Counted from the stretch's first letter, positions 28,124 to 38,586 are shown. The stretch: DNA of 64,000 nucleotides from an uncultured Pseudomonadales bacterium (GCA_964386355.1 CAYLQQ010000003.1:69880-133879), one strand, 5' to 3'. Notes: generated by a model not told the origin, from the sequence alone. Numbers and translations: made by a program.

Positions 28124-28810
28124 TTATAGATTTATACTTTTGGCTGCAAATTCTTTTTCTATGGAAATTTTCAAATCATTGAGAAGATATGGAAGGTGAG
28201 ACTTACCAATCTCAGTTTTTACTCTTTTCGGAAACATCTCTCTGAATTCTCCATACACTCGTAGCCACTCTGAGGGTTGGTATTTCTCCTTTAAATGGTC
28301 AATCGTCAACTTACTTAAATTGTCTGCATCAACAATAATTGCCTCGTCGTCAGTATTTGAAGCGTGTTCGTCAGCTGCATGGATAAGACGATTGATGGTT
28401 TTTATGTCCTTTGGCAAGTATTTTAATTTTTTTAAAAAGTTGATTGTGAATTTTTTCGAATTATCGTTAGCTTGTCTCTCAAATTGTAGGAGTTCGTCAA
28501 AAGTAATTTTCTTATCGCTAGACAAAACATCTCTCCAGCCAATATCGTGGATATATGCTGCGCTAATGAGAAGGGGCAAATAATCCCTTCCTTTTCCTAG
28601 TTTTTTCACCCACTCTACGACTCGCCTGGCATGGTTCCAATCGCCAGGACGACATCGTGAAATTTCTTTCTCAGCTTTTGATTTAAAAATGTCTTCATTA
28701 AAATTCATATCATTTGGATAATTTTGACTGGCGGAGGGGGCGAGATTTCCATTCGTCTCACTTCGTTCGCTCAGGATAGCCACGTGCTTTGCACTTGGTT
28801 GACTTCTCAT
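28124..28810 (-). CDS. HD-domain phosphohydrolase; start trimmed because the listed ORF overlaps tRNA-Ser(CGA)
   Basis: AAYIHDIGW and ADEH-type HD motifs. Upstream in-frame Met codons are at about 28708 and 28810; the start is uncertain. Confidence 0.45.
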   Translation of the reverse strand: MRSQPSAKHVAILSERSETNGNLAPSASQNYPNDMNFNEDIFKSKAEKEISRCRPGDWNHARRVVEWVKKLGKGRDYLPLLISAAYIHDIGWRDVLSSDKKITFDELLQFERQANDNSKKFTINFLKKLKYLPKDIKTINRLIHAADEHASNTDDEAIIVDADNLSKLTIDHLKEKYQPSEWLRVYGEFREMFPKRVKTEIGKSHLPYLLNDLKISIEKEFAAKSINL

Positions 28811-28864
28811 CTCGCCTTCATTGAAAAGAAAGAATCGGCATTTGAGCCGACTTTTTCTTTTCAG

Positions 28865-28953
28865 CGGAAGGGGCGAGATTCGAACTCGCGATATACCTTG
28901 CGGCATATGCCGATTTTCGAAATCGGTGCACTCGACCTCTATGCGACCCTTCC
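28865..28953 (-). tRNA. tRNA-Ser (anticodon CGA), class II
   Basis: Reverse complement GGAAGGGTCGCATAGAGGTCGAGTGCACCGATTTCGAAAATCGG...GCGAGTTCGAATCTCGCCCCTTCCG. Anticodon loop TTCGAAA. Confidence 0.85.
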
Positions 28954-30923: not shown

Positions 30924-31149
30924 AGACTTACCCTTTTTGGTGATAGACGATAAAATACCACCTGAAGCATAAAAGTAAATTGAGCTTTATTTCCCAGACT
31001 ACATGCTTCATAATTCGGTATCTTAATAGGAGGAGTCGCCCCGCGCCAAATCATATTTCAATATGATATGGCCGTCCCGCGAAGTGAAACGAAGCGGGAT
31101 AGTGGTCAAATATGTTTGTTTGATAGTTGAGTAAGTAAAATAAAAACCT

Positions 31150-31237
31150 GGAGGAGTCGCCTAGTGGTTCATGGCGCACGCCTGGAAAGCGTGTATGCTT
31201 CGTGCATTCGCGAGTTCGAATCTCGCCTCCTCCGCCA
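31150..31237 (+). tRNA. tRNA-Ser (anticodon GGA), class II, with CCA encoded
   Basis: GGAGGAG-TC-GCC-TAGTGGTTCAT-GGC-GCACGC-CTGGAAA-GCGTG-(long variable arm)-GCGAG-TTCGAAT-CTCGC-CTCCTCC-G-CCA. Confidence 0.85.
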
Positions 31238-32716
31238 TTCTAAAATATCAGTATTTTTTGGTAAGTCTTTGAGGTAGTCGTAAGGCTTTTTGTATTGTAC
31301 CTTCTGTATTTTCCCATCAGCTATCTCACAGTTCCAAAGTAAGAAATCAAGCAGTTCTTTCTTAACCTGTTTGTTTCCCTTTTTAAACTCAGAATGCAGG
31401 CTAATACAACGTTTTTTAATCTTTTCCAAAAGTTCCAAAGTTTTAGTGGGGTTGGGTGGTGTGTACTTGCTCAGAGCAATCTCGAGGTTGGTTTTCTCCT
31501 CCATTAAGGCTTTCCGTTTCTCCTGGTAGGTCTGTTCATCGAGGCTGTTCTCTAGAAGTAGGTCGAGTAGCCGGTTCAGCTTCTTCTGAATACCGGAGAG
31601 CTCCTGCTGCATCAGCTTGGCTCCATTGAGCTTGTCCTGTTCCCGAACCATTCTATCCTCCATATAGAGCTTGAGTGATAGCGAGGCTAAGTCACCTGGT
31701 AAGGAGGACTGCTTCATCAGACTTTGCAGCAAATCCTGTACCCCCGGCTCATCAAGGTAATCCCGATGCTGGGAACACACCCCTTTTCCGTTAGTGCAGT
31801 AGTAATACACATAGCGCCCTTTTTTAAGGCTAGCGGTTAGCTTGCATCCACACACAGCACATGATAGATACCCACGGTAGAGGAAGTTGTGAGTTTGTTT
31901 CTTGCTTCGGTTAGTCCCATTTAAAACAGTTTGAACTCTATCCCAAAGAGTTTTACTGACTGCTGGTTTGTGTTTACCTTTGTAAAGGATATCGTTTCTT
32001 AGAATTGCTCCATAATAGAATGGGTTTCTCAGACACTTGTGTAAAACCGACTTATGGACTTTTTTATTGCCTAATCTGGTACGTAATCCATCTTTGTACA
32101 GGATAGAAGCAACCTGTTTAAGAGAGTATTCACCTGTTGAGAATAATCTAAACAGCTTTTGAATGTACGTAAATCGCAGAGGATCAGGCACGATCTCTTT
32201 AGTTTCTTTATCGTTTAGGTAACCGATGTATGCCATACCCGGATAGCCGCCTTTTAGAAGTTTGGTTTCATTCCCATGCTTAACCTTGACTGAAAGTTCC
32301 CGGGAATAGTTTGAGGCAAACAGGAAATCAAATCCCATATAGAGTAAATCTTGAACTGATGAATAGATACGGTTAGGAGTTCTGATCTCTTTAAGTTTCC
32401 CTTGTTCGATGAGCTTGGCTATCTTTCCGGCCTCAATCCAGTTTCGACTTAACCTATCCAGGTGAACAGCCAGAATAGCATTGACCTCGCCTGATTCAAT
32501 ACGCTTAAGCATAGATGAGAATTGTGGGCGGTTGTTGTCATCTTTGGCACTGCGAGCTTCCTTAAGGACATCAATCACATTGAGGCCATCTCTGTCAGCT
32601 TGCTCAAGGTTAAGACGTTGCTGGGTTTCCAGTGATTGGATTTGCTTGGTATTTTCATCAGAGGACTTACGACAATAAGCTATATAGCGAAGAGAAGAAT
32701 TATTCATCATGAGCAT
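31169..32716 (-). CDS. Large serine recombinase (resolvase catalytic domain + recombinase domain + zinc ribbon + coiled-coil); its C-terminal codons overlap tRNA-Ser(GGA)
   Basis: RYIAYCRKSSDENTKQIQSLETQ (catalytic Ser), LDRLSRN, and CAVCGCKL...CTNGKGVC zinc ribbon. The start is probably at the MLMM Met cluster (32707-32716); the listed ORF begins at 32776. Confidence 0.75.
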   Translation of the reverse strand: MLMMNNSSLRYIAYCRKSSDENTKQIQSLETQQRLNLEQADRDGLNVIDVLKEARSAKDDNNRPQFSSMLKRIESGEVNAILAVHLDRLSRNWIEAGKIAKLIEQGKLKEIRTPNRIYSSVQDLLYMGFDFLFASNYSRELSVKVKHGNETKLLKGGYPGMAYIGYLNDKETKEIVPDPLRFTYIQKLFRLFSTGEYSLKQVASILYKDGLRTRLGNKKVHKSVLHKCLRNPFYYGAILRNDILYKGKHKPAVSKTLWDRVQTVLNGTNRSKKQTHNFLYRGYLSCAVCGCKLTASLKKGRYVYYYCTNGKGVCSQHRDYLDEPGVQDLLQSLMKQSSLPGDLASLSLKLYMEDRMVREQDKLNGAKLMQQELSGIQKKLNRLLDLLLENSLDEQTYQEKRKALMEEKTNLEIALSKYTPPNPTKTLELLEKIKKRCISLHSEFKKGNKQVKKELLDFLLWNCEIADGKIQKVQYKKPYDYLKDLPKNTDILEWRRRRDSNSRMHEAYTLSRRAP

Positions 32717-33641
32717 CACTCTTTCCGGCAGGCGGATTGTGGTAGCCATTATACTCAAAAAAATATACTTGACCATTCCTCTTACTTACAAACTTGCTAT
32801 TAAACGTAGATTCAATACCATGAGCACCCAACTCATCAAGAATATACTCAGCCTCATCAGAATAATATATTTTAGGTCTATCCAGATTACGGGAAGTAGC
32901 ATAACTACGATGTCCAACAAGTCTTTTGTCTAGAGCATTTTTAATCATGTACTTAGCCAAGTATTGTCCAACATGATCCAAGGTATACACTCGTTCAATT
33001 TTAATAAATCCGAATCCCCAGTATTGCGCAATGGTTTCTTTATCGAGAAAGGGAAAGTCTACCACAAGGTGATAGTGAACTGCTCCTCGTTTTTGAAACT
33101 CAACTACCCAGACATACTTAAACTTCCCATACTGTTTACGCATAGCTTTTAGGAAAGCTCCCATCTTGTCATGACAGACCTCAACATTGGTAATATCAAA
33201 ACTGTTGTGATCATTTAGAGTAAGCGTGAGAAACTTGGTGTGTGGATTGTCTCCAAAATTACCCTGCACAAGGCGTATTAGGTTGTTTGTAGCTCTGACT
33301 GCTGTACGTTTTCGGTACTCTTTACTCCTCTTTGTTTTTCGCTTAAATGGATCTTCAAAGGGTTTTCGCTTCTTAATCTCTTTAATTCGTATCGTTAAGG
33401 GAAACTCATATCGATAGTATTGGATTAAATTATTAATCTTAATTATTTTAATATTTGTCTGTTTGTAGGTGGGAGAGGTATCAAATTTTTCCTGTGCTTT
33501 ATATATGAGTTTTAGTGCTTCATTCCGTTTTGTGACGTTACTATCAAGTAGAGAAGGTGGGAACTGCCTGGGAGCAGTGGTATCCCGACTACCGTCGGGA
33601 TACAAGTGGCGCTCTAATAGTTTTTCTTTAGCCTTATTCAT
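32700..33641 (-). CDS. Rolling-circle replication initiator (HUH endonuclease Rep)
   Basis: Motif I FLTLTL, motif II AVHYHLVV (HUH), and motif III YLAKYMIKN (Y..K). Confidence 0.7.
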   Translation of the reverse strand: MNKAKEKLLERHLYPDGSRDTTAPRQFPPSLLDSNVTKRNEALKLIYKAQEKFDTSPTYKQTNIKIIKINNLIQYYRYEFPLTIRIKEIKKRKPFEDPFKRKTKRSKEYRKRTAVRATNNLIRLVQGNFGDNPHTKFLTLTLNDHNSFDITNVEVCHDKMGAFLKAMRKQYGKFKYVWVVEFQKRGAVHYHLVVDFPFLDKETIAQYWGFGFIKIERVYTLDHVGQYLAKYMIKNALDKRLVGHRSYATSRNLDRPKIYYSDEAEYILDELGAHGIESTFNSKFVSKRNGQVYFFEYNGYHNPPAGKSDAHDE

Positions 33642-33887
33642 ACACCTCCGTTTCCGGTGTATGGTTTAGGTACAAGGCTTTGCCTAAGTGAATGAGGGAT
33701 AACCTAATCTCAAGAAGATCATCGGAAGGTATAGTGATACCGAACGTATTTTGGAAGTATTCCTGTATTTGCTGGTACTGGGTTTCTTCAAGGGACTTGA
33801 CTTGCTTCATATAGCCAGACTAGGCTACGAAGCACAATTACATCAGGGATAAAGCGGGGGATATTTTACGGGGTATATTGTGGGAGA

Positions 33888-34628
33888 TTATGAAATATCA
33901 ATCAATTTATACCCCTCGGAACGGATGGCTACTATACTGTCCATGACCTTAGTTACATCATCTTTTCCAACGCCTGATTCCTTTAACCTTCTGCCAAACC
34001 TCTTTTTAATATCACGAATCAGATCTTGTGCTTGGCTTACATCTAAACCCTTTGTGGATACATTTAAGTTAAGGTAGCTAACAAAATCAATGTAGTTGAT
34101 TACTTTGCCTTTATGTTGAAACAAGTGCATAAAAAATCTAAATTCTCGATTATTAACGTTGATAGTTTTTGATTGGTTGCCTGTATACTGAAATGTAGCT
34201 CTGGTTAAATTGATGGTGATTGGGCCGTGAACATACAATAAATCATCCACACCTCTTATATTAGGTTTTACCAAATGTAATGTGTTATCTTTTTGAGCAG
34301 TTAACTCAGCTAGATCTCTGTCAATTTCCCTAAACGTATGTTCTAGATCATAGGGAAGCGGATAGATATGAGGAATAGTAGAAGCCAAATACTGTAAGTC
34401 CTCTTCAAACGTCTGCTTTGTGGAGTTCCAGTCTTTGATGTGTTCATCAGCTTTGTTAAATAACGAGGGGAAGCTTTTTAATCCCATGATTGGTAATTGA
34501 CGAAACTCAGGACGAATATCAATCACGGTAAATGGCTGTATTATCTGCTGGTATAGATCATCTAATAAATGAGAGGGAAAAATATACTGGTGAGATTGTT
34601 CTGAATATTCACTGTACACACAATCCAA
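33888..34628 (-). CDS. Hypothetical protein with a C-terminal OmpR/PhoB-like winged-helix DNA-binding domain
   Basis: C-terminus ...IRDIKKRFGRR...VMDSIVAIRSEGYKLI resembles trans_reg_C. Confidence 0.35.
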   Translation of the reverse strand: MDCVYSEYSEQSHQYIFPSHLLDDLYQQIIQPFTVIDIRPEFRQLPIMGLKSFPSLFNKADEHIKDWNSTKQTFEEDLQYLASTIPHIYPLPYDLEHTFREIDRDLAELTAQKDNTLHLVKPNIRGVDDLLYVHGPITINLTRATFQYTGNQSKTINVNNREFRFFMHLFQHKGKVINYIDFVSYLNLNVSTKGLDVSQAQDLIRDIKKRFGRRLKESGVGKDDVTKVMDSIVAIRSEGYKLIDIS

Positions 34629-34894
34629 AATCTCGAAAGCCTTTTGATAGAGGACATAATGGTAATACCTGACAGCTTTAAGGTAAAAGGTTTTAGTAGC
34701 TGGGGTTTTGCAATGACGGGGGTATACTCAAGCGGTAATTCATCCCATTCTGAGCTGTTCTTATCAAAGAGACTTAGAAATGTTTCAATAGCTGGAGCAA
34801 AGAAGTTGAGAACCTTATCTTGAAATAATGTTTTAATGTCATCAGTTAGCTTATTCATAAAAAATGTTCGTAATATTGACCAGTAGTATATCAC
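34562..34894 (-). CDS. Hypothetical protein
   Basis: ORF of 110 aa within the element. Confidence 0.25.
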   Translation of the reverse strand: MIYYWSILRTFFMNKLTDDIKTLFQDKVLNFFAPAIETFLSLFDKNSSEWDELPLEYTPVIAKPQLLKPFTLKLSGITIMSSIKRLSRFWIVCTVNIQNNLTSIFFPLIY

Positions 34895-34900
34895 CTCATA

Positions 34901-34928
34901 AAAAGCCTCCGGTTTAGGAGGCTTTTAT
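34901..34928. terminator. Bidirectional rho-independent terminator
   Basis: AAAA-GCCTCC-ggttta-GGAGGC-TTTTAT. Confidence 0.5.
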
Positions 34929-34947
34929 ATTAATCTTTTAAAAAATA

Positions 34948-35616
34948 TTATATTTCTGAACCAATATCTTTATACTCATTAACCGGAGTTGGGACCGGAC
35001 TACTATCTGGTTTTTCTGCAGTACTAGCTCTATGTTCATTAAAGGCTTTATCAATAACAACGCAAGCATCTTTATACGGTAAAGAGGCATAAGAATATTC
35101 AGGTTTAAATCCAATACCTTGACCATAATTACCCACTCTTACTTCGTAAGTAATTCCACCGGGCAAAGAAATATCTACCTGAGGTTCTCTTCCTATACTA
35201 TTACTATTTGGACGGTAGTACTCTGCATCAGCCTGTTGTTTTGCTGCCTGAGCCTTTAATTGAAAGTTGTCTTCACCCCCAACTAACGCATATATTTGTT
35301 CTTTTGTCAAAGAATTCACTCCAAAAGTATATTTCATTTTATTAGGATCGCGCGGGATATGAGCTCTATTATCTCTCTTTTCAAAATCCTCCCACTTACT
35401 CTCATCATCAAAAACTGCGCCTACAGCACAAGGTTGCAGACTTAAAGCATAGTCAGCACCACTTCCTGATTGAATGGCATTTTCTAATGCAGAACCAGAC
35501 CAATTTGTTAATAGTTCCTTCCACATTGCAGTCATATTATTAATGAGCCGATCTGCAGTCTCTTTTTTTGTTTCCTCAATAGTCCCTAACTGTTCTGTCG
35601 TTGTAGTTTCAGTCAT
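34948..35616 (-). CDS. Hypothetical protein (element cargo; possible structural protein)
   Basis: ORF of 222 aa; no motif recognised. Confidence 0.35.
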   Translation of the reverse strand: MTETTTTEQLGTIEETKKETADRLINNMTAMWKELLTNWSGSALENAIQSGSGADYALSLQPCAVGAVFDDESKWEDFEKRDNRAHIPRDPNKMKYTFGVNSLTKEQIYALVGGEDNFQLKAQAAKQQADAEYYRPNSNSIGREPQVDISLPGGITYEVRVGNYGQGIGFKPEYSYASLPYKDACVVIDKAFNEHRASTAEKPDSSPVPTPVNEYKDIGSEI

Positions 35617-35881
35617 ATTTCTCCTTAATATTATTAATATTTATTGAGGTAATATTAACATCGCTAGATCTTTTAAATCAAGGTCTAGAAAATAATTTAA
35701 AATTACTTTTTTCCTCTATAAAAGTTCCAACATCGTCCCATCTCCTCCGCCAGGCGAGACAGAATAGTCTTTATGATTACTCTAGTAATCAATTTAAACA
35801 CTCTGTCTTTGTCAGGGGATTTGTTACAATCATTGGGTACAAAGTTAGAATGTATTGAATTAATAGTAAATAACTAGAGTT

Positions 35882-36352
35882 CTAACAATCACCCCTACCT
35901 ATAAGCACTAATGCTTGATCGATTTCCTGTGCTGCAATCCAAGGTTTGAAATTCTTCGGAATATGAAGAAAGGTGTATCGGGATTTAAGTTGTTTTTGGT
36001 TAATAAGCTTCATAATTTCCCAACTGGTTTGATTACAATAAGAATTACCAATTGCTGTGGCATACTTCATACCAAGAGTTGGTTGCAAAAATGGCTGTAT
36101 TTCTGTGGTTATTAAGTGGTCACTTTCTATCAAATTATTCCTAAACTGATTAGTGCATATTGTTTCAATGCGAATTTTTTCCTGATCAACACCAGAATAT
36201 GAACCTAACCCTACAATATATTCCGGCTGGTCATGCAATAGCATATTTAGATAATGATCAAGGTTATTAGGGAAAACCAGATAACAGCAACTCAGTTGCT
36301 TAAGTCTATATAAAATATGGCCAGTACCACCTAAAGCAAATCCATAAATCAT
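35882..36352 (-). CDS. Pyroglutamyl-peptidase I-like (peptidase C15), compact form
   Basis: DQPEYIVGLGSYSG, IGNSYCNQT (Cys nucleophile region) and TFLHIPKN (His) align with the Pcp active-site blocks. Confidence 0.45.
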   Translation of the reverse strand: MIYGFALGGTGHILYRLKQLSCCYLVFPNNLDHYLNMLLHDQPEYIVGLGSYSGVDQEKIRIETICTNQFRNNLIESDHLITTEIQPFLQPTLGMKYATAIGNSYCNQTSWEIMKLINQKQLKSRYTFLHIPKNFKPWIAAQEIDQALVLIGRGDC

Positions 36353-36357
36353 AAAGT

Positions 36358-38586
36358 TTAAAACAAACTGAGTTGGTCTTCATTGATAACTTTCTTTTTG
36401 ATTGGGCTATTGAGCTTTGATAAACCCAAACTGCGATAGGTTCGTAAGCGTTTATAGTACATGATTTTTAACATTGGCACCTGGTCATCAAAATAATCAT
36501 GAACCACTGCTTGAGTTTTTCCTTCATATGGCCGCTGGACCCGGCCAATATTCTGGATCAATTTCCCCTTCCAGGAAAACGGAAAGGCTAAGAATAGGTG
36601 CGAGACTTCGGGCCAATCAAAACCTTCTCCAATTAGTTTACCGGTAGCAATTAGCAGTTGAAAACGGTCCTGATGTAATCTTTTAGCAATCCGTTCCCGT
36701 TGCTTTTTCGTCATAATACCTGTTGCAACCGCGGCATGAACACCTTTGATCTTTTGGCGAGTCATTTCAAGTAAGGTTTTACAGTGTTCCAGACGTTCGG
36801 ATAGTACCAAACACTTAGCTCCAGTAGCCAAAACAGCGGCAATATCAGTGACAATTTGCTCGTTTCGCTCTTTATCGGCAATTACTAACCGGCTTGCCTC
36901 CTGAAAATCCTCACATTTCGTATTCCCTTTGAATTGTGTTTTACGAGTAACCAATTGAGTTTCGATAGTAGGATTGATCTGAGTAGTTTTCTGTCCAGCT
37001 TCAGGTTCGGCAGTAACGATCTGATCTGATAGGTAGTAATACATTAACTTGTCTAGTTTATCTTTTCGATAGGCGGTAGCCGATAAACCCAATACATATT
37101 TAGCTGGAAATTGCTTAACTACCTGACTAAAGGTATTTGCTGGAACATGGTGGCATTCATCAATAATGACTAGTCCAAAGTCATTCTTAATTTCCTCTAT
37201 TCCTCTTCTGAAAAGAGTCATATAGGAAGCAATAGTGATCTTTTTCCCAACTTTCCATTTATTATCACCAATCAAACCAATGTCGTCCTTTGAAAGCTTG
37301 AAGTAATCACTAATTCGTTTATGCCACTGTTGAAGTAAAGTGTTGGTATGAACAATGATTAATGTCCTTTGCCGTAATTTTTTCATTAAAGCCAAAGCGA
37401 CCATAGTTTTGCCAAATCCAGGATTAGCATTTAAGATTACCCGGTTATACCCAATCAATTGTTTCAGGACTTTTTGCTGATCTTTCCTTAAAATAAGTTT
37501 TGAAGGAAAACTCGTGGTTTTTGTGGTGACCCTCTGATCATCAAAGGTAACTTTTAAATGTTCTTGCTGTGCAAAAGCAATTGTTTTCTCTAAAAAGCCT
37601 ATTGGTGCCAAAATCCCTTCAGGTTGAATTTCGAGAGTCTTAATAAATCGGGGAGTTTGCCAGGTTGAATAACCCAGACGTTCTTTTTCATAGAACTCAG
37701 GATTAGGAAAGTTGAGTTCCTGCTTCAGATATCGGTAGAGTTTATCCGGAAACCAAACGTTCGGAATAAATATACCAGAACTTAAGATTAATTTAGTTTC
37801 CTGCCCTTGAGTGGTAATAACTTTCTCACCGGCTTCAATTGATCCAACATCATCAAGGATGTTTTCGGCTTTCTCTGATTGAGTTTGAGAGGTCATTGTA
37901 ATTGGCTGGATTACAGGTATCTTCAAAATACTATCAATCCTACTGATAGCTATCTTTTTAACGCTGCCCAATATTTTCCACTGATCAGGAAATACCTTAC
38001 CCTCTTCATCAATGAAAGCGGTATACCCCTGTTTTAGGAACTGACCACAAAGAGGCAGGCAAATCAAGTTACCATAACCTTTGCCGGTATGCTCATCAGC
38101 GCTGGGAAACATCCGGTCAAAGGTATGCCGGTTAGTAATCCCGGCTTGGGATAAGAAATATTTACCCAATTGTCTGGCTTTATACCCCTCAACCAATTTC
38201 TCAAAGAAGAACCATAAGTGAGAACCGTTGCCGGATTTTGACCGTTCAATTAAATACGGTAAGTCATAGGTTCGAGCAATATCAGTTACTTTCCTAGTAG
38301 CTTCAAGCCAATTTTGACCATCAAAGTCAAAAGCTAAAAAGGCAGTCGTATTATCCGGAAACAATGGGTAAACACCAATAACCTCTTTGCCTGTCAGATG
38401 AGATTCAATAACCTGATCTGTTAATGCTTGAGGTTGGTGGTTTATAGAGTATACCGGTGTATAACCCGACTTTTTGCCAGAGTAATCTACCCAAAACCTG
38501 GCAAAAACATCCGTTCTAGTCCTAAAAAGTGACCGGGCTAGGTTAATTTGCTCTAAAGTAATAGGATTTCCCATAGAATTACCCAA
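36358..38586 (-). CDS. Fusion of a bifunctional primase-polymerase (AEP/Prim-Pol) N-terminal domain and a C-terminal SF2 helicase (DEAD/ResIII + HelicC)
   Basis: AEP motifs hLtGkeviGvY, AFDFDG and SGNGSHLWFFF. Helicase Walker A NPGFGKT and DExH box VIIDECHH. Confidence 0.65.
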   Translation of the reverse strand: MGNSMGNPITLEQINLARSLFRTRTDVFARFWVDYSGKKSGYTPVYSINHQPQALTDQVIESHLTGKEVIGVYPLFPDNTTAFLAFDFDGQNWLEATRKVTDIARTYDLPYLIERSKSGNGSHLWFFFEKLVEGYKARQLGKYFLSQAGITNRHTFDRMFPSADEHTGKGYGNLICLPLCGQFLKQGYTAFIDEEGKVFPDQWKILGSVKKIAISRIDSILKIPVIQPITMTSQTQSEKAENILDDVGSIEAGEKVITTQGQETKLILSSGIFIPNVWFPDKLYRYLKQELNFPNPEFYEKERLGYSTWQTPRFIKTLEIQPEGILAPIGFLEKTIAFAQQEHLKVTFDDQRVTTKTTSFPSKLILRKDQQKVLKQLIGYNRVILNANPGFGKTMVALALMKKLRQRTLIIVHTNTLLQQWHKRISDYFKLSKDDIGLIGDNKWKVGKKITIASYMTLFRRGIEEIKNDFGLVIIDECHHVPANTFSQVVKQFPAKYVLGLSATAYRKDKLDKLMYYYLSDQIVTAEPEAGQKTTQINPTIETQLVTRKTQFKGNTKCEDFQEASRLVIADKERNEQIVTDIAAVLATGAKCLVLSERLEHCKTLLEMTRQKIKGVHAAVATGIMTKKQRERIAKRLHQDRFQLLIATGKLIGEGFDWPEVSHLFLAFPFSWKGKLIQNIGRVQRPYEGKTQAVVHDYFDDQVPMLKIMYYKRLRTYRSLGLSKLNSPIKKKVINEDQLSLF

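What the first reader, a model, noticed from the sequence alone, without database searches (positions are those of the whole stretch)
31150..35752. Compact integrated element (serine recombinase + rolling-circle Rep) inserted at the 3' end of tRNA-Ser(GGA)
The last 11 nt of tRNA-Ser(GGA), CTCCTCCGCCA at 31227-31237, recur exactly at 35742-35752; about 0.03 chance matches of that length are expected in this window. Between the two copies every gene is on the opposite strand to the tRNA. The first is a large serine recombinase (RKSS catalytic Ser, zinc ribbon) whose last roughly 23 codons run into the tRNA gene. The second is a Rep with all three rolling-circle motifs (FLTLTL, HYHLVV, YLAKYMIKN). 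A winged-helix protein and two unknown ORFs (110 and 222 aa) complete it. This looks like an integrated RCR plasmid or ssDNA-phage-like episome. Pairing a serine recombinase with an 11-bp tRNA-derived direct repeat is atypical: serine integrases usually leave only a 2-bp crossover. So the recombination chemistry or the true att boundaries deserve a look. A further 12-nt copy of the tRNA 5' end (GGAGGAGTCGCC) sits at 31029-31040.
Basis: partly seen in the sequence, partly recalled or inferred. Interest (0 to 1): 0.75.

Follow-up and report, generated by a model that had tools for sequence, protein, structure and literature searches.

The report
Small tRNA-inserting plasmid-like element
A 4.5-kb mobile DNA element that carries its own copying enzyme and its own insertion enzyme sits at the end of a serine tRNA gene, and it belongs to a widespread family in ultra-small (CPR) bacteria that I could not find described, whose insertion enzyme always targets the tail end of tRNA genes.

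Summary
tRNA-Ser(GGA) is at 31150-31237. Its last 11 nt recur exactly once, at 35742-35752. Every gene in between lies on the minus strand.

It encodes:
- a large serine recombinase (LSR);
- an HUH rolling-circle Rep;
- a conserved 58-aa protein;
- one 323-aa gene, read as two ORFs (110 and 246 aa) because of a 1-nt deletion;
- an orphan 222-aa protein.

Related LSRs were collected from about 50 loci, almost all CPR/Patescibacteria MAGs. In 36 of the 45 with a complete LSR 3' end, the LSR gene ends in fixed register inside the 3' end of an antisense tRNA gene (Ser, Gln, Ala, Trp, Asp, Pro, Val or Arg).

A consensus built from other elements (AAGTTCCAAC.TCGTCCCA) hits the window once, directly abutting the right-hand repeat. 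It resembles the tRNA T-loop and lies 5 bp further out, which fits the known LSR attP/attB rule.

One relative is a circular 5.3-kb contig with an intact attP. No empty site or circle was found for this copy.

No capsid or assembly gene was detected, so I read it as an integrative rolling-circle plasmid-like element. It is a new variant of known kinds. The closest precedent is phage phiRSM.

The parts
31150..31237 (+). tRNA-Ser(GGA), the integration target. It is intact, with an encoded CCA. I infer it is rebuilt at the left junction (attL) from host DNA up to the crossover and element DNA after it.
   Evidence: ARAGORN; Rfam tRNA 57.4 bits.
31227..31237 (+). attL copy of the 11-bp common core, CTCCTCCGCCA (acceptor 3' strand, discriminator and CCA). 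By inference the crossover lies in the last 6 nt, most likely at CC 31232-31233.
   Evidence: Exact repeat. The cores of eight mapped elements overlap only in the last 6 nt of the tRNA. A 7-bp inverted repeat (31221-31227 and 35753-35759) is centred on 31232/31233.
31238..31265 (+). P' arm of attP. It lies inside the 3' end of the recombinase coding sequence (antisense ...KNTDILE).
   Evidence: The pattern N6-A(A/T)(A/T)ATC...TTTTTG is conserved at the same register next to the tRNA end in about 20 loci.
31169..32749 (-). Large serine recombinase. The called product is 526 aa and the likely start is 32710. The last 22 codons (31237 down to 31172) are antisense tRNA. In the excised form they would be replaced by ...WRRRWDDVGTFIEEKSNFKLFSRP.
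   Evidence: Pfam PF00239, PF07508 and PF13408; PHROG 95 integrase at 2e-69. Alignment shows an invariant R-K-S-S motif and four Cys. Tails reconstructed.
32700..33641 (-). HUH rolling-circle replication initiator (FLTLTL, HYHLVV, YLAKYMIKN). Its stop overlaps the recombinase start.
   Evidence: PF23343 at 77.7 bits; PHROG 3419 and 3584. 775 homologues, many on contigs of 1-10 kb. Closest annotated relatives are Reps of small Firmicutes plasmids.
33542..33548 (-). Candidate nick site of the double-strand origin, CTTGATA, followed by GTAACGTCACAA. It lies 93 nt into rep.
   Evidence: The same block, CTTGATA(A/G)TA.CGT, sits 57-131 nt into rep in 8 of 18 elements examined, with invariant Leu CTT and Asp GAT codons. 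CTTGATA is the dso nick site of Rep_1/pC194-type plasmids (PMC10378824).
33634..33810 (-). Conserved 58-aa protein that overlaps the rep start by 8 nt. Candidate recombination directionality factor or rep regulator.
   Evidence: Homologues sit in the same position in 20 loci, including L006, which has the recombinase but no Rep. No Pfam or PDB match.
33888..34894 (-). One 323-aa gene of unknown function, split in this copy into ORFs 34562-34894 and 33888-34628 by a 1-nt deletion at 34691-34694.
   Evidence: Intact 323-aa versions are P0130 (SRR8925812, 99.76% DNA identity) and P0123 (67% aa identity). A 25%-identical homologue (E 2e-15) is on the circular relative L075. No Pfam hit; AlphaFold pLDDT 38.
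34900..34926 (-). GC-rich hairpin followed by a T-run. It looks like an intrinsic terminator downstream of the 222-aa gene.
   Evidence: Read from the sequence. The only database hit is a weak Rfam leader/terminator-like match.
34948..35616 (-). Orphan 222-aa cargo protein of unknown function.
35722..35741 (+). P arm of attP: AAGTTCCAACATCGTCCCA(T). I infer it is a recombinase-binding site that mimics the tRNA T-loop.
   Evidence: A consensus taken from other elements matches the window only here (0.04 expected). GTTCCAA lies 22 nt from the tRNA-end copy in 12 or more independent junctions, while the T-loop GTTCGAA lies at 17 nt.
35742..35752 (+). attR copy of the 11-bp core, which is the displaced host tRNA 3' end. 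Host DNA resumes at 35753.
   Evidence: The host flank, attR and P arm are 99.94% identical in a second sample (L065).

Best explanation
This is an integrated copy of a small (4,515 bp) plasmid-like mobile element. It belongs to a family of 2.6-6.6 kb elements found almost only in CPR/Patescibacteria genomes.

**Proposed life cycle**
- As a free circle, the element replicates by the rolling-circle mechanism. Its HUH Rep would nick a CTTG/ATA origin that lies inside the 5' part of rep.
- Its large serine recombinase binds an attP site that straddles the recombinase's own stop region. The site consists of a P arm (AAGTTCCAAC.TCGTCCCA), a core that copies the tRNA tail, and a P' arm inside the recombinase coding sequence.
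- The recombinase recombines attP with an attB formed by the T-arm, acceptor and CCA end of tRNA-Ser(GGA).
- The 2-bp crossover lies within the last 6 nt of the tRNA gene, most likely at acceptor positions 71-72 (CC, 31232-31233).
- Because attP carries the same discriminator and CCA, the tRNA stays intact. The displaced 11 nt mark the far end.
- Integration also swaps the recombinase's C-terminal 20-25 residues.
- Excision presumably needs a directionality factor, and the conserved 58-aa protein is the candidate.

**Shown**
- The boundaries and the gene identities.
- The family-wide fixed register between the recombinase gene and a tRNA.
- The conserved P arm and its 5-bp offset relative to the T-loop.
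- A circular relative with an intact attP.

**Inferred**
- The crossover position and the origin.
- The role of the 58-aa protein.
- Whether this particular copy is still active.
- How the element moves between cells.
For: **Element and gene identities**
- The repeat is exact and unique.
- The LSR has all three Pfam domains, an invariant catalytic R-K-S-S motif and four zinc-ribbon Cys.
- The Rep has PF23343 and all three motifs.

**Family-wide target pattern**
- Of 45 related loci with a complete LSR 3' end, 36 have an antisense tRNA at a fixed register. The offset is -29 or -27 in 31 of them and ranges from -20 to -45 in the other five.
- The target tRNAs are Ser x20, Gln x8, Ala x2, Trp x2, and one each of Asp, Pro, Val and Arg.

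**Shared gene module**
- The module 58-aa protein, Rep, LSR recurs. Rep is in 22 loci and the 58-aa protein in 20.

**Far-end (P-arm) motif**
- The P-arm motif lies exactly 22 nt from the tRNA-end copy, or 20 nt where the tRNA has no encoded CCA. This holds in WIN, L006, L015, L017, L019, L022, L024, L026, L027, L028, L032 and L038, and in the contiguous attP-like junctions of L012, L020, L039, L041 and L046.
- The consensus hits the window only at 35722-35740.
- The T-loop GTTCGAA lies at 17 nt (or 15 nt), so the offset is 5 bp. This matches the zinc-ribbon motif rule for LI integrase attP versus attB (PMC3783163).

**Free and integrated forms in relatives**
- L075 is a 5,428-nt contig with a 127-nt terminal overlap, which makes it a circle. 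It carries the 58-aa homologue, Rep, LSR, a contiguous attP and a homologue of the 323-aa protein.
- L076 is an element whose contig begins at the P arm and ends in the tRNA.

**Origin candidate**
- A conserved CTTGATA block lies within rep, and CTTGATA is a known dso nick site.
Against: - No empty tRNA-Ser(GGA) site and no circular junction was found for this particular element. The second sample that contains this host also carries it.
- An attP-pattern scan of JGI metagenomes returned only scars without an LSR.
- The 323-aa gene is frameshifted in this copy, so the copy may be impaired.
- Simple dyad-symmetry scoring did not pick out a crossover centre, and the B' half-site shows no conserved motif.
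- P-arm and origin conservation are confounded with coding. In the attP state the LSR ORF reads through the P arm, and the CTTGATA block lies inside rep.
- No transfer function is identifiable.
- The host assignment to CPR is inferred from the relatives, not shown for the window itself.
Confidence: 0.85

Rival explanations
1. It is an integrated ssDNA virus (a provirus). The 222-aa and/or 323-aa proteins would be unrecognised structural proteins, and the Rep would make ssDNA for packaging.
For: The Rep family is shared with ssDNA phages. Matches include Spiroplasma plectrovirus SVTS2 and 'bajarodino' inovirus-like genomes at 26-35% identity. Two proteins have no assignable function. The size is viral-like.
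Confidence: 0.08
2. It is a satellite or mobilisable element. It can integrate, excise and replicate on its own, but it depends on a helper (a co-resident phage or the host's DNA-uptake or pilus machinery) to move between cells.
For: No transfer or packaging gene fits in 4.5 kb. Cargo between the P arm and the core module varies between elements (p222 here; a LexA-like gene plus another gene in L075; a methylase plus HNH in L076). Several tRNAs carry tandem arrays and scars.
Against: No helper, no packaging signal and no relaxase or oriT was identified. This differs from the best explanation only in the transfer step, which is untested either way.
Confidence: 0.3
3. It is a decaying, immobile remnant that is inherited vertically. 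The repeats are relics of an old insertion.
For: The 323-aa gene is frameshifted in this copy. The same insertion at the same site appears in two samples. No free form of this element was found.
Against: The LSR, Rep and 58-aa ORFs are intact with all catalytic motifs. Both att arms match the family consensus perfectly. The frameshift is a single base in a homopolymer and is absent from the sister copy, which is 99.76% identical.
Confidence: 0.12
4. The 11-bp repeat is a coincidence, and the genes are ordinary chromosomal genes or part of a larger island that includes the neighbouring TOTE defence genes.
For: The GC content of the element (0.387) equals that of the rest of the window (0.395). 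A defence locus lies immediately to the right.
Against: The repeat is unique. The family P-arm consensus abuts it exactly. The same architecture recurs at 12 different tRNA species in dozens of genomes. No related element carries TOTE.
Confidence: 0.01

Closest known systems
Ralstonia filamentous phages phiRSM1/phiRSM3 (Inoviridae), with ORF14 as the integrase
   Same: A small rolling-circle replicon encodes a serine recombinase. Its attP/attB core is the 3' end of a tRNA-Ser gene in reverse orientation next to the recombinase gene. The phiRSM core is the 13 nt TGGCGGAGAGGGT; the core here is TGGCGGAGGAG (PMC3816273).
   Different: The phiRSM integrase is a small resolvase/invertase-type enzyme, whereas this one is a 490-530 aa large serine recombinase with recombinase and zinc-ribbon domains. 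phiRSM is a 9-kb virus with coat and assembly modules, and none is present here. In phiRSM attP lies between genes, while here it overlaps the end of the recombinase gene. The hosts are Proteobacteria there and CPR here.
Phage large serine integrases (A118/LI, SPbeta SprA, Bxb1, phiC31)
   Same: The domain architecture matches (Resolvase, Recombinase, Zn ribbon). The closest solved relative is the SPbeta integrase, at E 4e-9. Short att sites are present, and a distal motif lies 5 bp closer to the centre in attB than in attP (PMC3783163).
   Different: From memory, the known enzymes mostly target protein-coding genes. This clade consistently targets the 3' end of tRNA genes on the opposite strand. 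Its attP lies within its own 3' coding end, so integration changes its C-terminal tail. It is carried by 3-7 kb Rep elements rather than by tailed phages.
Actinomycete integrative elements of the pSAM2 type (AICEs)
   Same: These are integrative plasmids with a rolling-circle initiator that insert at the 3' end of tRNA genes and regenerate the tRNA (PMC2440964 abstract). The Rep here gives only a weak RepSA-like match.
   Different: AICEs use tyrosine integrases with Xis, are 9-24 kb, and encode FtsK-like transfer and spread genes. None of these is present here.
Small cryptic rolling-circle plasmids of Firmicutes (Bacillus cereus group, Brevibacillus; pC194-like origins)
   Same: These carry the closest annotated Reps, at 32-36% identity over the catalytic core. 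They share the two-tyrosine YxxKY motif, the candidate CTTGATA nick site and the 1.4-10 kb size range.
   Different: I did not examine these plasmid records for integration genes, so the absence of an integrase or att site in them is an assumption. They come from a different host phylum.
tRNA-gene genomic islands as catalogued by Islander
   Same: An intact tRNA, a displaced 3' fragment as a direct repeat, and an integrase next to the tRNA.
   Different: Islander describes this pattern as catalysed by tyrosine integrases (PMC4383910 abstract). Here the enzyme is a serine recombinase.

Membership tests
Large serine recombinase (serine integrase) | N-terminal resolvase catalytic domain with the nucleophilic serine | tested here: met
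   PF00239 at 53.4 bits against a cutoff of 23.3. The Y..R-K-S-S motif is invariant in a 4-way alignment.
Large serine recombinase (serine integrase) | Recombinase domain followed by a zinc-ribbon domain with four Cys | tested here: met
   PF07508 at 42.1 bits and PF13408 at 27.1 bits against a cutoff of 25.3. C297, C300, C318 and C325 are invariant.
Large serine recombinase (serine integrase) | Coiled-coil motif inserted in the zinc-ribbon domain | not tested
   A segment of about 100 aa follows the Cys cluster and aligns across the family. No coiled-coil prediction was run.
Large serine recombinase (serine integrase) | attP and attB share a distal binding motif that lies 5 bp closer to the centre in attB | tested here: met
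   This was shown for one half-site pair. GTTCCAA lies 22 nt (or 20) from the tRNA end in P arms, and GTTCGAA lies at 17 nt (or 15) in the tRNA. The rule comes from PMC3783163. No motif was found in B', and P' is only weakly symmetric.
Large serine recombinase (serine integrase) | 2-bp staggered crossover at a non-palindromic central dinucleotide, with unidirectional attP x attB recombination and an RDF for excision | not testable with these tools
   The crossover can only be bounded to the last 6 nt of the tRNA. CC or CA at positions 71-72 would be non-palindromic.
HUH rolling-circle Rep (PF23343 REP_ORF2-G2P; phiX174/pC194-like superfamily) | Motif I, the HUH motif and a tyrosine motif in the correct order | tested here: met
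   FLTLTL, HYHLVV and YLAKYMIKN appear in the translation. PF23343 scores 77.7 bits against a cutoff of 27.8.
HUH rolling-circle Rep (PF23343 REP_ORF2-G2P; phiX174/pC194-like superfamily) | A cognate double-strand origin with a nick site | tested here: inconclusive
   A CTTGATA block is conserved in 8 of 18 elements inside rep, and the motif is known for pC194-type plasmids. Because it lies in coding sequence, conservation is confounded.
HUH rolling-circle Rep (PF23343 REP_ORF2-G2P; phiX174/pC194-like superfamily) | Existence as a free circular replicon | tested here: inconclusive
   Not found for this element. It was found for the relative L075, a 5.3-kb circle with a 127-nt terminal overlap.
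Inoviridae / Plectroviridae provirus (phiRSM-like) | Zot/pI morphogenesis ATPase and small membrane coat proteins | tested here: not met
   No Pfam or PHROG hit on any element ORF other than the LSR and Rep. The remaining coding space is one 323-aa and one 222-aa gene.
Microviridae-like or other ssDNA provirus | A capsid protein | tested here: not met
AICE (pSAM2-type integrative conjugative element) | Tyrosine integrase with Xis, plus an FtsK-like Tra protein | tested here: not met
   The recombinase is of the serine type, and no FtsK/Tra domain is present.
tRNA-gene integrative island (Islander definition) | Intact tRNA plus a displaced 3' fragment as a direct repeat flanking the island, with the integrase gene inside | tested here: met
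   The usual tyrosine integrase is replaced by a serine recombinase.

The most novel reading that the evidence does not exclude
This recombinase clade may use the universally conserved tRNA T-loop (GTTCGAA) as the zinc-ribbon recognition motif of its attB. In that case a change of only the 6-19 bp core in attP would retarget it to any tRNA, which would explain the 12 tRNA species used across the family.

In addition, attP lies inside the recombinase's own 3' end. Integration therefore swaps a conserved C-terminal peptide (W-D/Y-x-V/L/I-G-T, encoded by the P arm) for a tRNA-antisense tail. This could act as a built-in sensor of the integrated versus free state that tunes directionality or stability.
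Probability: 0.25. Interest if true: 0.8.

Novelty: new variant of a known kind. Interest (0 to 1): 0.6.

Why it matters
- **Mobile elements of CPR bacteria.** I found nothing describing this family in eight full-text searches of the held library. Here is a widespread, minimal, self-replicating and self-integrating element family with mapped ends. From memory, genetic tools for CPR/Patescibacteria are scarce, so it is an obvious starting point for a vector.
- **tRNA targeting by a serine enzyme.** Insertion into tRNA genes is described as the domain of tyrosine integrases (PMC4383910). A whole clade of large serine recombinases that does the same by different chemistry shows convergent use of tRNA 3' ends. 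It gives a compact enzyme/att pair whose target motif is present in every genome, which may interest people who engineer serine integrases.
- **Limits.** The individual copy in this window is an ordinary member of the family, and nothing about its chemistry appears exceptional.

Tried and rejected
**Searches for other states of this element**
- Empty site or free circle: exact-protein look-ups for Rep, p222 and p156 found only the same integrated configuration, in two samples. The NUDIX look-up failed because there was no exact match.
- A degenerate attP pattern found nothing in viral contigs. It gave 8 hits in JGI metagenomes, and none had an LSR or Rep next to it. These are scars or attR-like junctions.

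**Unknown proteins**
- p246/p323: no Pfam, NCBIfam or PHROG hit. The AlphaFold model was too poor to search.
- p323 is not homologous to the ~255-aa 'famA' protein that occupies the same position in 14 other elements (hmmsearch; hhalign probability 0.2).
- The 58-aa family has no Pfam or PDB similarity.

**Site analyses**
- Dyad-symmetry scoring of reconstructed attP and attB sites did not identify a crossover centre. The attB maximum is simply the T-arm hairpin.
- The promoter/terminator scan was no better than shuffles.
- Rfam found nothing in the element apart from the tRNA.

**Readings considered and rejected**
- That the tRNA-antisense extension of the ORF is itself functional. The tails differ in length and sequence between loci.
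- That contiguous attP-like junctions in large contigs are free forms. L012 is a tandem array.

Full report
**1. Observation**

ARAGORN finds tRNA-Ser(GGA) at 31150-31237 on the plus strand with an encoded CCA, and Rfam agrees. The 11-mer CTCCTCCGCCA occurs exactly twice, at 31227-31237 and 35742-35752. With one mismatch allowed there are 3 hits against 0.35 expected. The 12-mer copy of the tRNA 5' end at 31029-31040 is also real.

All ORFs between the repeats are on the minus strand. They are:
- a large serine recombinase (LSR) with Pfam Resolvase, Recombinase and Zn_ribbon_recom and PHROG 'integrase' at 2e-69;
- an HUH Rep (PF23343, 77.7 bits) containing FLTLTL, HYHLVV and YLAKYMIKN;
- a 58-aa ORF;
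- ORFs of 246 and 110 aa;
- a 222-aa ORF.

The LSR ORF runs 22 codons plus the stop into the tRNA gene on the opposite strand.

**2. Correction to the gene list**

The 110-aa and 246-aa ORFs are one gene. A contig from another sample (L074, SRR8925812) matches window 35649-33176 at 99.76% identity. It has one extra A in the run at 34691-34694, which gives an intact 323-aa protein. A 67%-identical 323-aa homologue exists in a JGI metagenome.

The 323-aa protein has no Pfam or NCBIfam hit even at E<=10. Its AlphaFold model is unusable at pLDDT 38. The 'winged-helix' label is therefore unverified.

**3. The element belongs to a family, and the family defines its ends**

The closest Rep homologues (34-41% identity) sit in the same module. 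The order is a gene of about 250 aa, a gene of about 60 aa, Rep, then LSR.

A scan of 185,579 species genomes with an LSR alignment returned 53 loci. By record title most are CPR/Patescibacteria MAGs:
- Gottesmanbacteria, Saccharibacteria and WWE3;
- Woese-, Ames-, Pace-, Falkow- and Harrisonbacteria.

Among the 45 loci from all sources in which the LSR 3' end is present, 36 have an antisense tRNA gene. Its 3' end sits at a near-constant register from the conserved LSR C-terminus (offset -29 or -27 in 31 of the 36). The tRNAs are:

| tRNA | Loci |
|---|---|
| Ser (GGA 9, CGA 5, TGA 4, GCT 2) | 20 |
| Gln | 8 |
| Ala | 2 |
| Trp | 2 |
| Asp, Pro, Val, Arg | 1 each |

Rep lies immediately upstream of the LSR in 22 loci, and a homologue of the 58-aa protein in 20. 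L006 has the 58-aa homologue and the LSR but no Rep.

The far ends carry a conserved motif, AAGTTCCAAC.TCGTCCCA. GTTCCAA lies exactly 22 nt before the copy of the tRNA end, or 20 nt where the tRNA has no encoded CCA. This holds in the window and in L006, L015, L017, L019, L022, L024, L026, L027, L028, L032 and L038. It gives element sizes of 2.6-6.6 kb.

Searched back against the window with up to 3 mismatches, this consensus matches once, at 35722-35740, flush against the right repeat (0.04 expected). They are defined by a recombinase-site architecture and not only by an 11-mer.

**4. Why there is an 11-bp repeat**

Reconstructed cores in the family range from 6 bp (L015, L017) to 19 bp (L028). 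They overlap only in the last 6 nt of the tRNA gene. The crossover must lie there.

Three soft lines of evidence point to tRNA positions 71-72 (CC, 31232-31233).
- In the LI-integrase structure paper, the zinc-ribbon motif occupies half-site positions 16-24 in attP and 11-19 in attB (PMC3783163). Placing GTTCCAA (P arm) and GTTCGAA (T-loop) at those positions puts the centre about 6 nt inside the tRNA.
- The reconstructed window attB has a perfect 7-bp inverted repeat, TCTCGCC and GGCGAGA, centred on that dinucleotide.
- CC and CA at that position are non-palindromic.

This placement is inference, and simple symmetry scoring did not confirm it.

What is solid is the 5-bp offset between the P-arm motif and the T-loop, which appears in both subfamilies (22 versus 17 nt, and 20 versus 15 nt). 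Under this model, the tRNA 3' tail to the right of the crossover is supplied by attP, so the tRNA stays intact. The extended identity is therefore expected and does not indicate unusual chemistry.

A published precedent exists. Ralstonia phage phiRSM integrates with a serine recombinase at a 13-nt core equal to the 3' end of tRNA-Ser(UCG), in reverse orientation next to the recombinase gene (PMC3816273).

**5. Free and integrated states**

- L075 is a 5,428-nt JGI contig with a 127-nt terminal overlap, which makes it a circle of about 5.3 kb.
  - It carries a 63-aa homologue of the 58-aa protein, Rep (36% identity, full length) and LSR (47% identity).
  - It has a contiguous P arm, core and P' arm (an intact attP).
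  - It also carries a homologue of the window's 323-aa protein (25% identity, E 2e-15).
- L076 is a contig that begins at a P arm and ends inside a tRNA-Pro. The assembly broke at both att sites.
- Contiguous attP-like junctions also occur in L012, L020, L039, L041, L046 and L058. At least L012 is a tandem array rather than a free form. L022, L027 and L058 carry several P-arm/core scars.
- For the window's own element I found neither an empty site nor a circle. The only other sample with this host (L065, 99.94% identity) has the same attR.

**6. Replication module**

The closest annotated Reps come from small cryptic plasmids of Bacillus, Brevibacillus and relatives (32-36% identity). More distant matches are inovirus-like and plectrovirus Reps.

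A DNA block, CTTGATA(A/G)TA.CGT, lies 57-131 nt into rep in 8 of 18 elements examined. In the window it is at 33542-33548 on the minus strand. The Leu CTT and Asp GAT codons in the block are invariant even though the Reps are only 35-40% identical. CTTGATA is the known dso nick site of pC194-type Rep_1 plasmids (PMC10378824). From memory, it is also the nick site of phiX174. This is a candidate origin only.

**7. A by-product worth noting**

In every reconstructed or contiguous attP, the LSR ORF reads through the core and the P arm. The result is a C-terminal peptide, W-D/Y-x-V/L/I-G-T-F/Y. In the integrated state the tail is tRNA antisense (...RDSNP...).

Conservation is stronger at the DNA level than at the protein level. 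For example, Gly changes to Arg where the motif becomes TTCGAAC or TTAGAAC. I therefore read the P arm primarily as a DNA site. A regulatory role for the tail swap is not excluded.

**8. What it is not**

- No capsid, coat or Zot-like ATPase was detected, so a provirus reading has no positive support.
- The neighbouring 156-aa ORF and the TOTE primase-helicase gene (35882-38586) lie outside attR and are not found in related elements.

**9. Novelty**

Eight full-text searches found no description of LSR-plus-Rep elements in CPR bacteria or of an LSR clade dedicated to tRNA 3' ends. The library is incomplete, so this is not proof of absence.

The components and the logic are all known: an LSR, an HUH Rep, regeneration of the tRNA tail, and the phiRSM precedent. 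I therefore rate it a new variant of a known kind and of moderate interest.

Noticed in passing
window 28729-28750 (-), downstream of tRNA-Ser(CGA) 28864-28953 (-): A fragment that looks like a tRNA 3' end (GAAATCTCGCCCCCTCCGCCA) lies about 115 nt downstream of the intact tRNA-Ser(CGA). It may be the scar of an old, almost fully deleted insertion at a second serine tRNA.
   Followed up: partly
window 31029-31040 and 31099-31126: The 12-mer GGAGGAGTCGCC equals the first 12 nt of tRNA-Ser(GGA) and lies 110 nt upstream of it, outside the element. No further similarity follows and its origin is unexplained. The nearby 31099-31126 segment recurs upstream of tRNA-Ser(TGA) and tRNA-Ser(CGA), so it is probably a shared tRNA promoter.
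   Followed up: partly
window 33342-33365 and 34045-34068: A 24-nt inverted repeat, 88% complementary, brackets the rep 5' end, the 58-aa gene and the 3' end of the 323-aa gene. My rough estimate is about 0.01 such pairs expected by chance. Its function is unknown.
   Followed up: no
window 35882-38586 and beyond: Immediately right of the element lie a 156-aa ORF with no family, a TOTE conflict-system primase-helicase (PF22548 at 6e-62) and an AAA_14/DUF4143 ATPase. This is a defence-type neighbourhood next to the tRNA hotspot.
   Followed up: partly
window ~35638-35649; L065 end and L074 start: In sample SRR8925812 the same element carries extra sequence between the P arm and the 222-aa gene. 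It includes a GC-rich hairpin (CTCCCCGCCGCCAAGCGGTCGGGGA), and both contigs break there.
   Followed up: no
L022 (Woesebacteria CP011214), L027, L058, L012: Several tRNAs carry arrays of two to four P-arm/core copies, or two different elements in tandem. This suggests repeated insertion into the regenerated tRNA followed by decay.
   Followed up: partly
L013 5130-13025; L023 1563-14672: L013 keeps the window's order of tRNA-Ser and tRNA-Arg genes and L023 a similar one. L013 has a 50%-identical LSR at the same tRNA-Ser(GGA). L023 (Gottesmanbacteria) has its element at tRNA-Ser(CGA), and its tRNA-Ser(GGA) looks unoccupied.
   Followed up: partly
L071, L072, L067, L073 (JGI metagenome contigs): These contigs contain attP-like junctions (P arm, core and about 18-30 nt of P' arm) with no recombinase gene beside them. 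They may be decayed elements or miniature derivatives.
   Followed up: no
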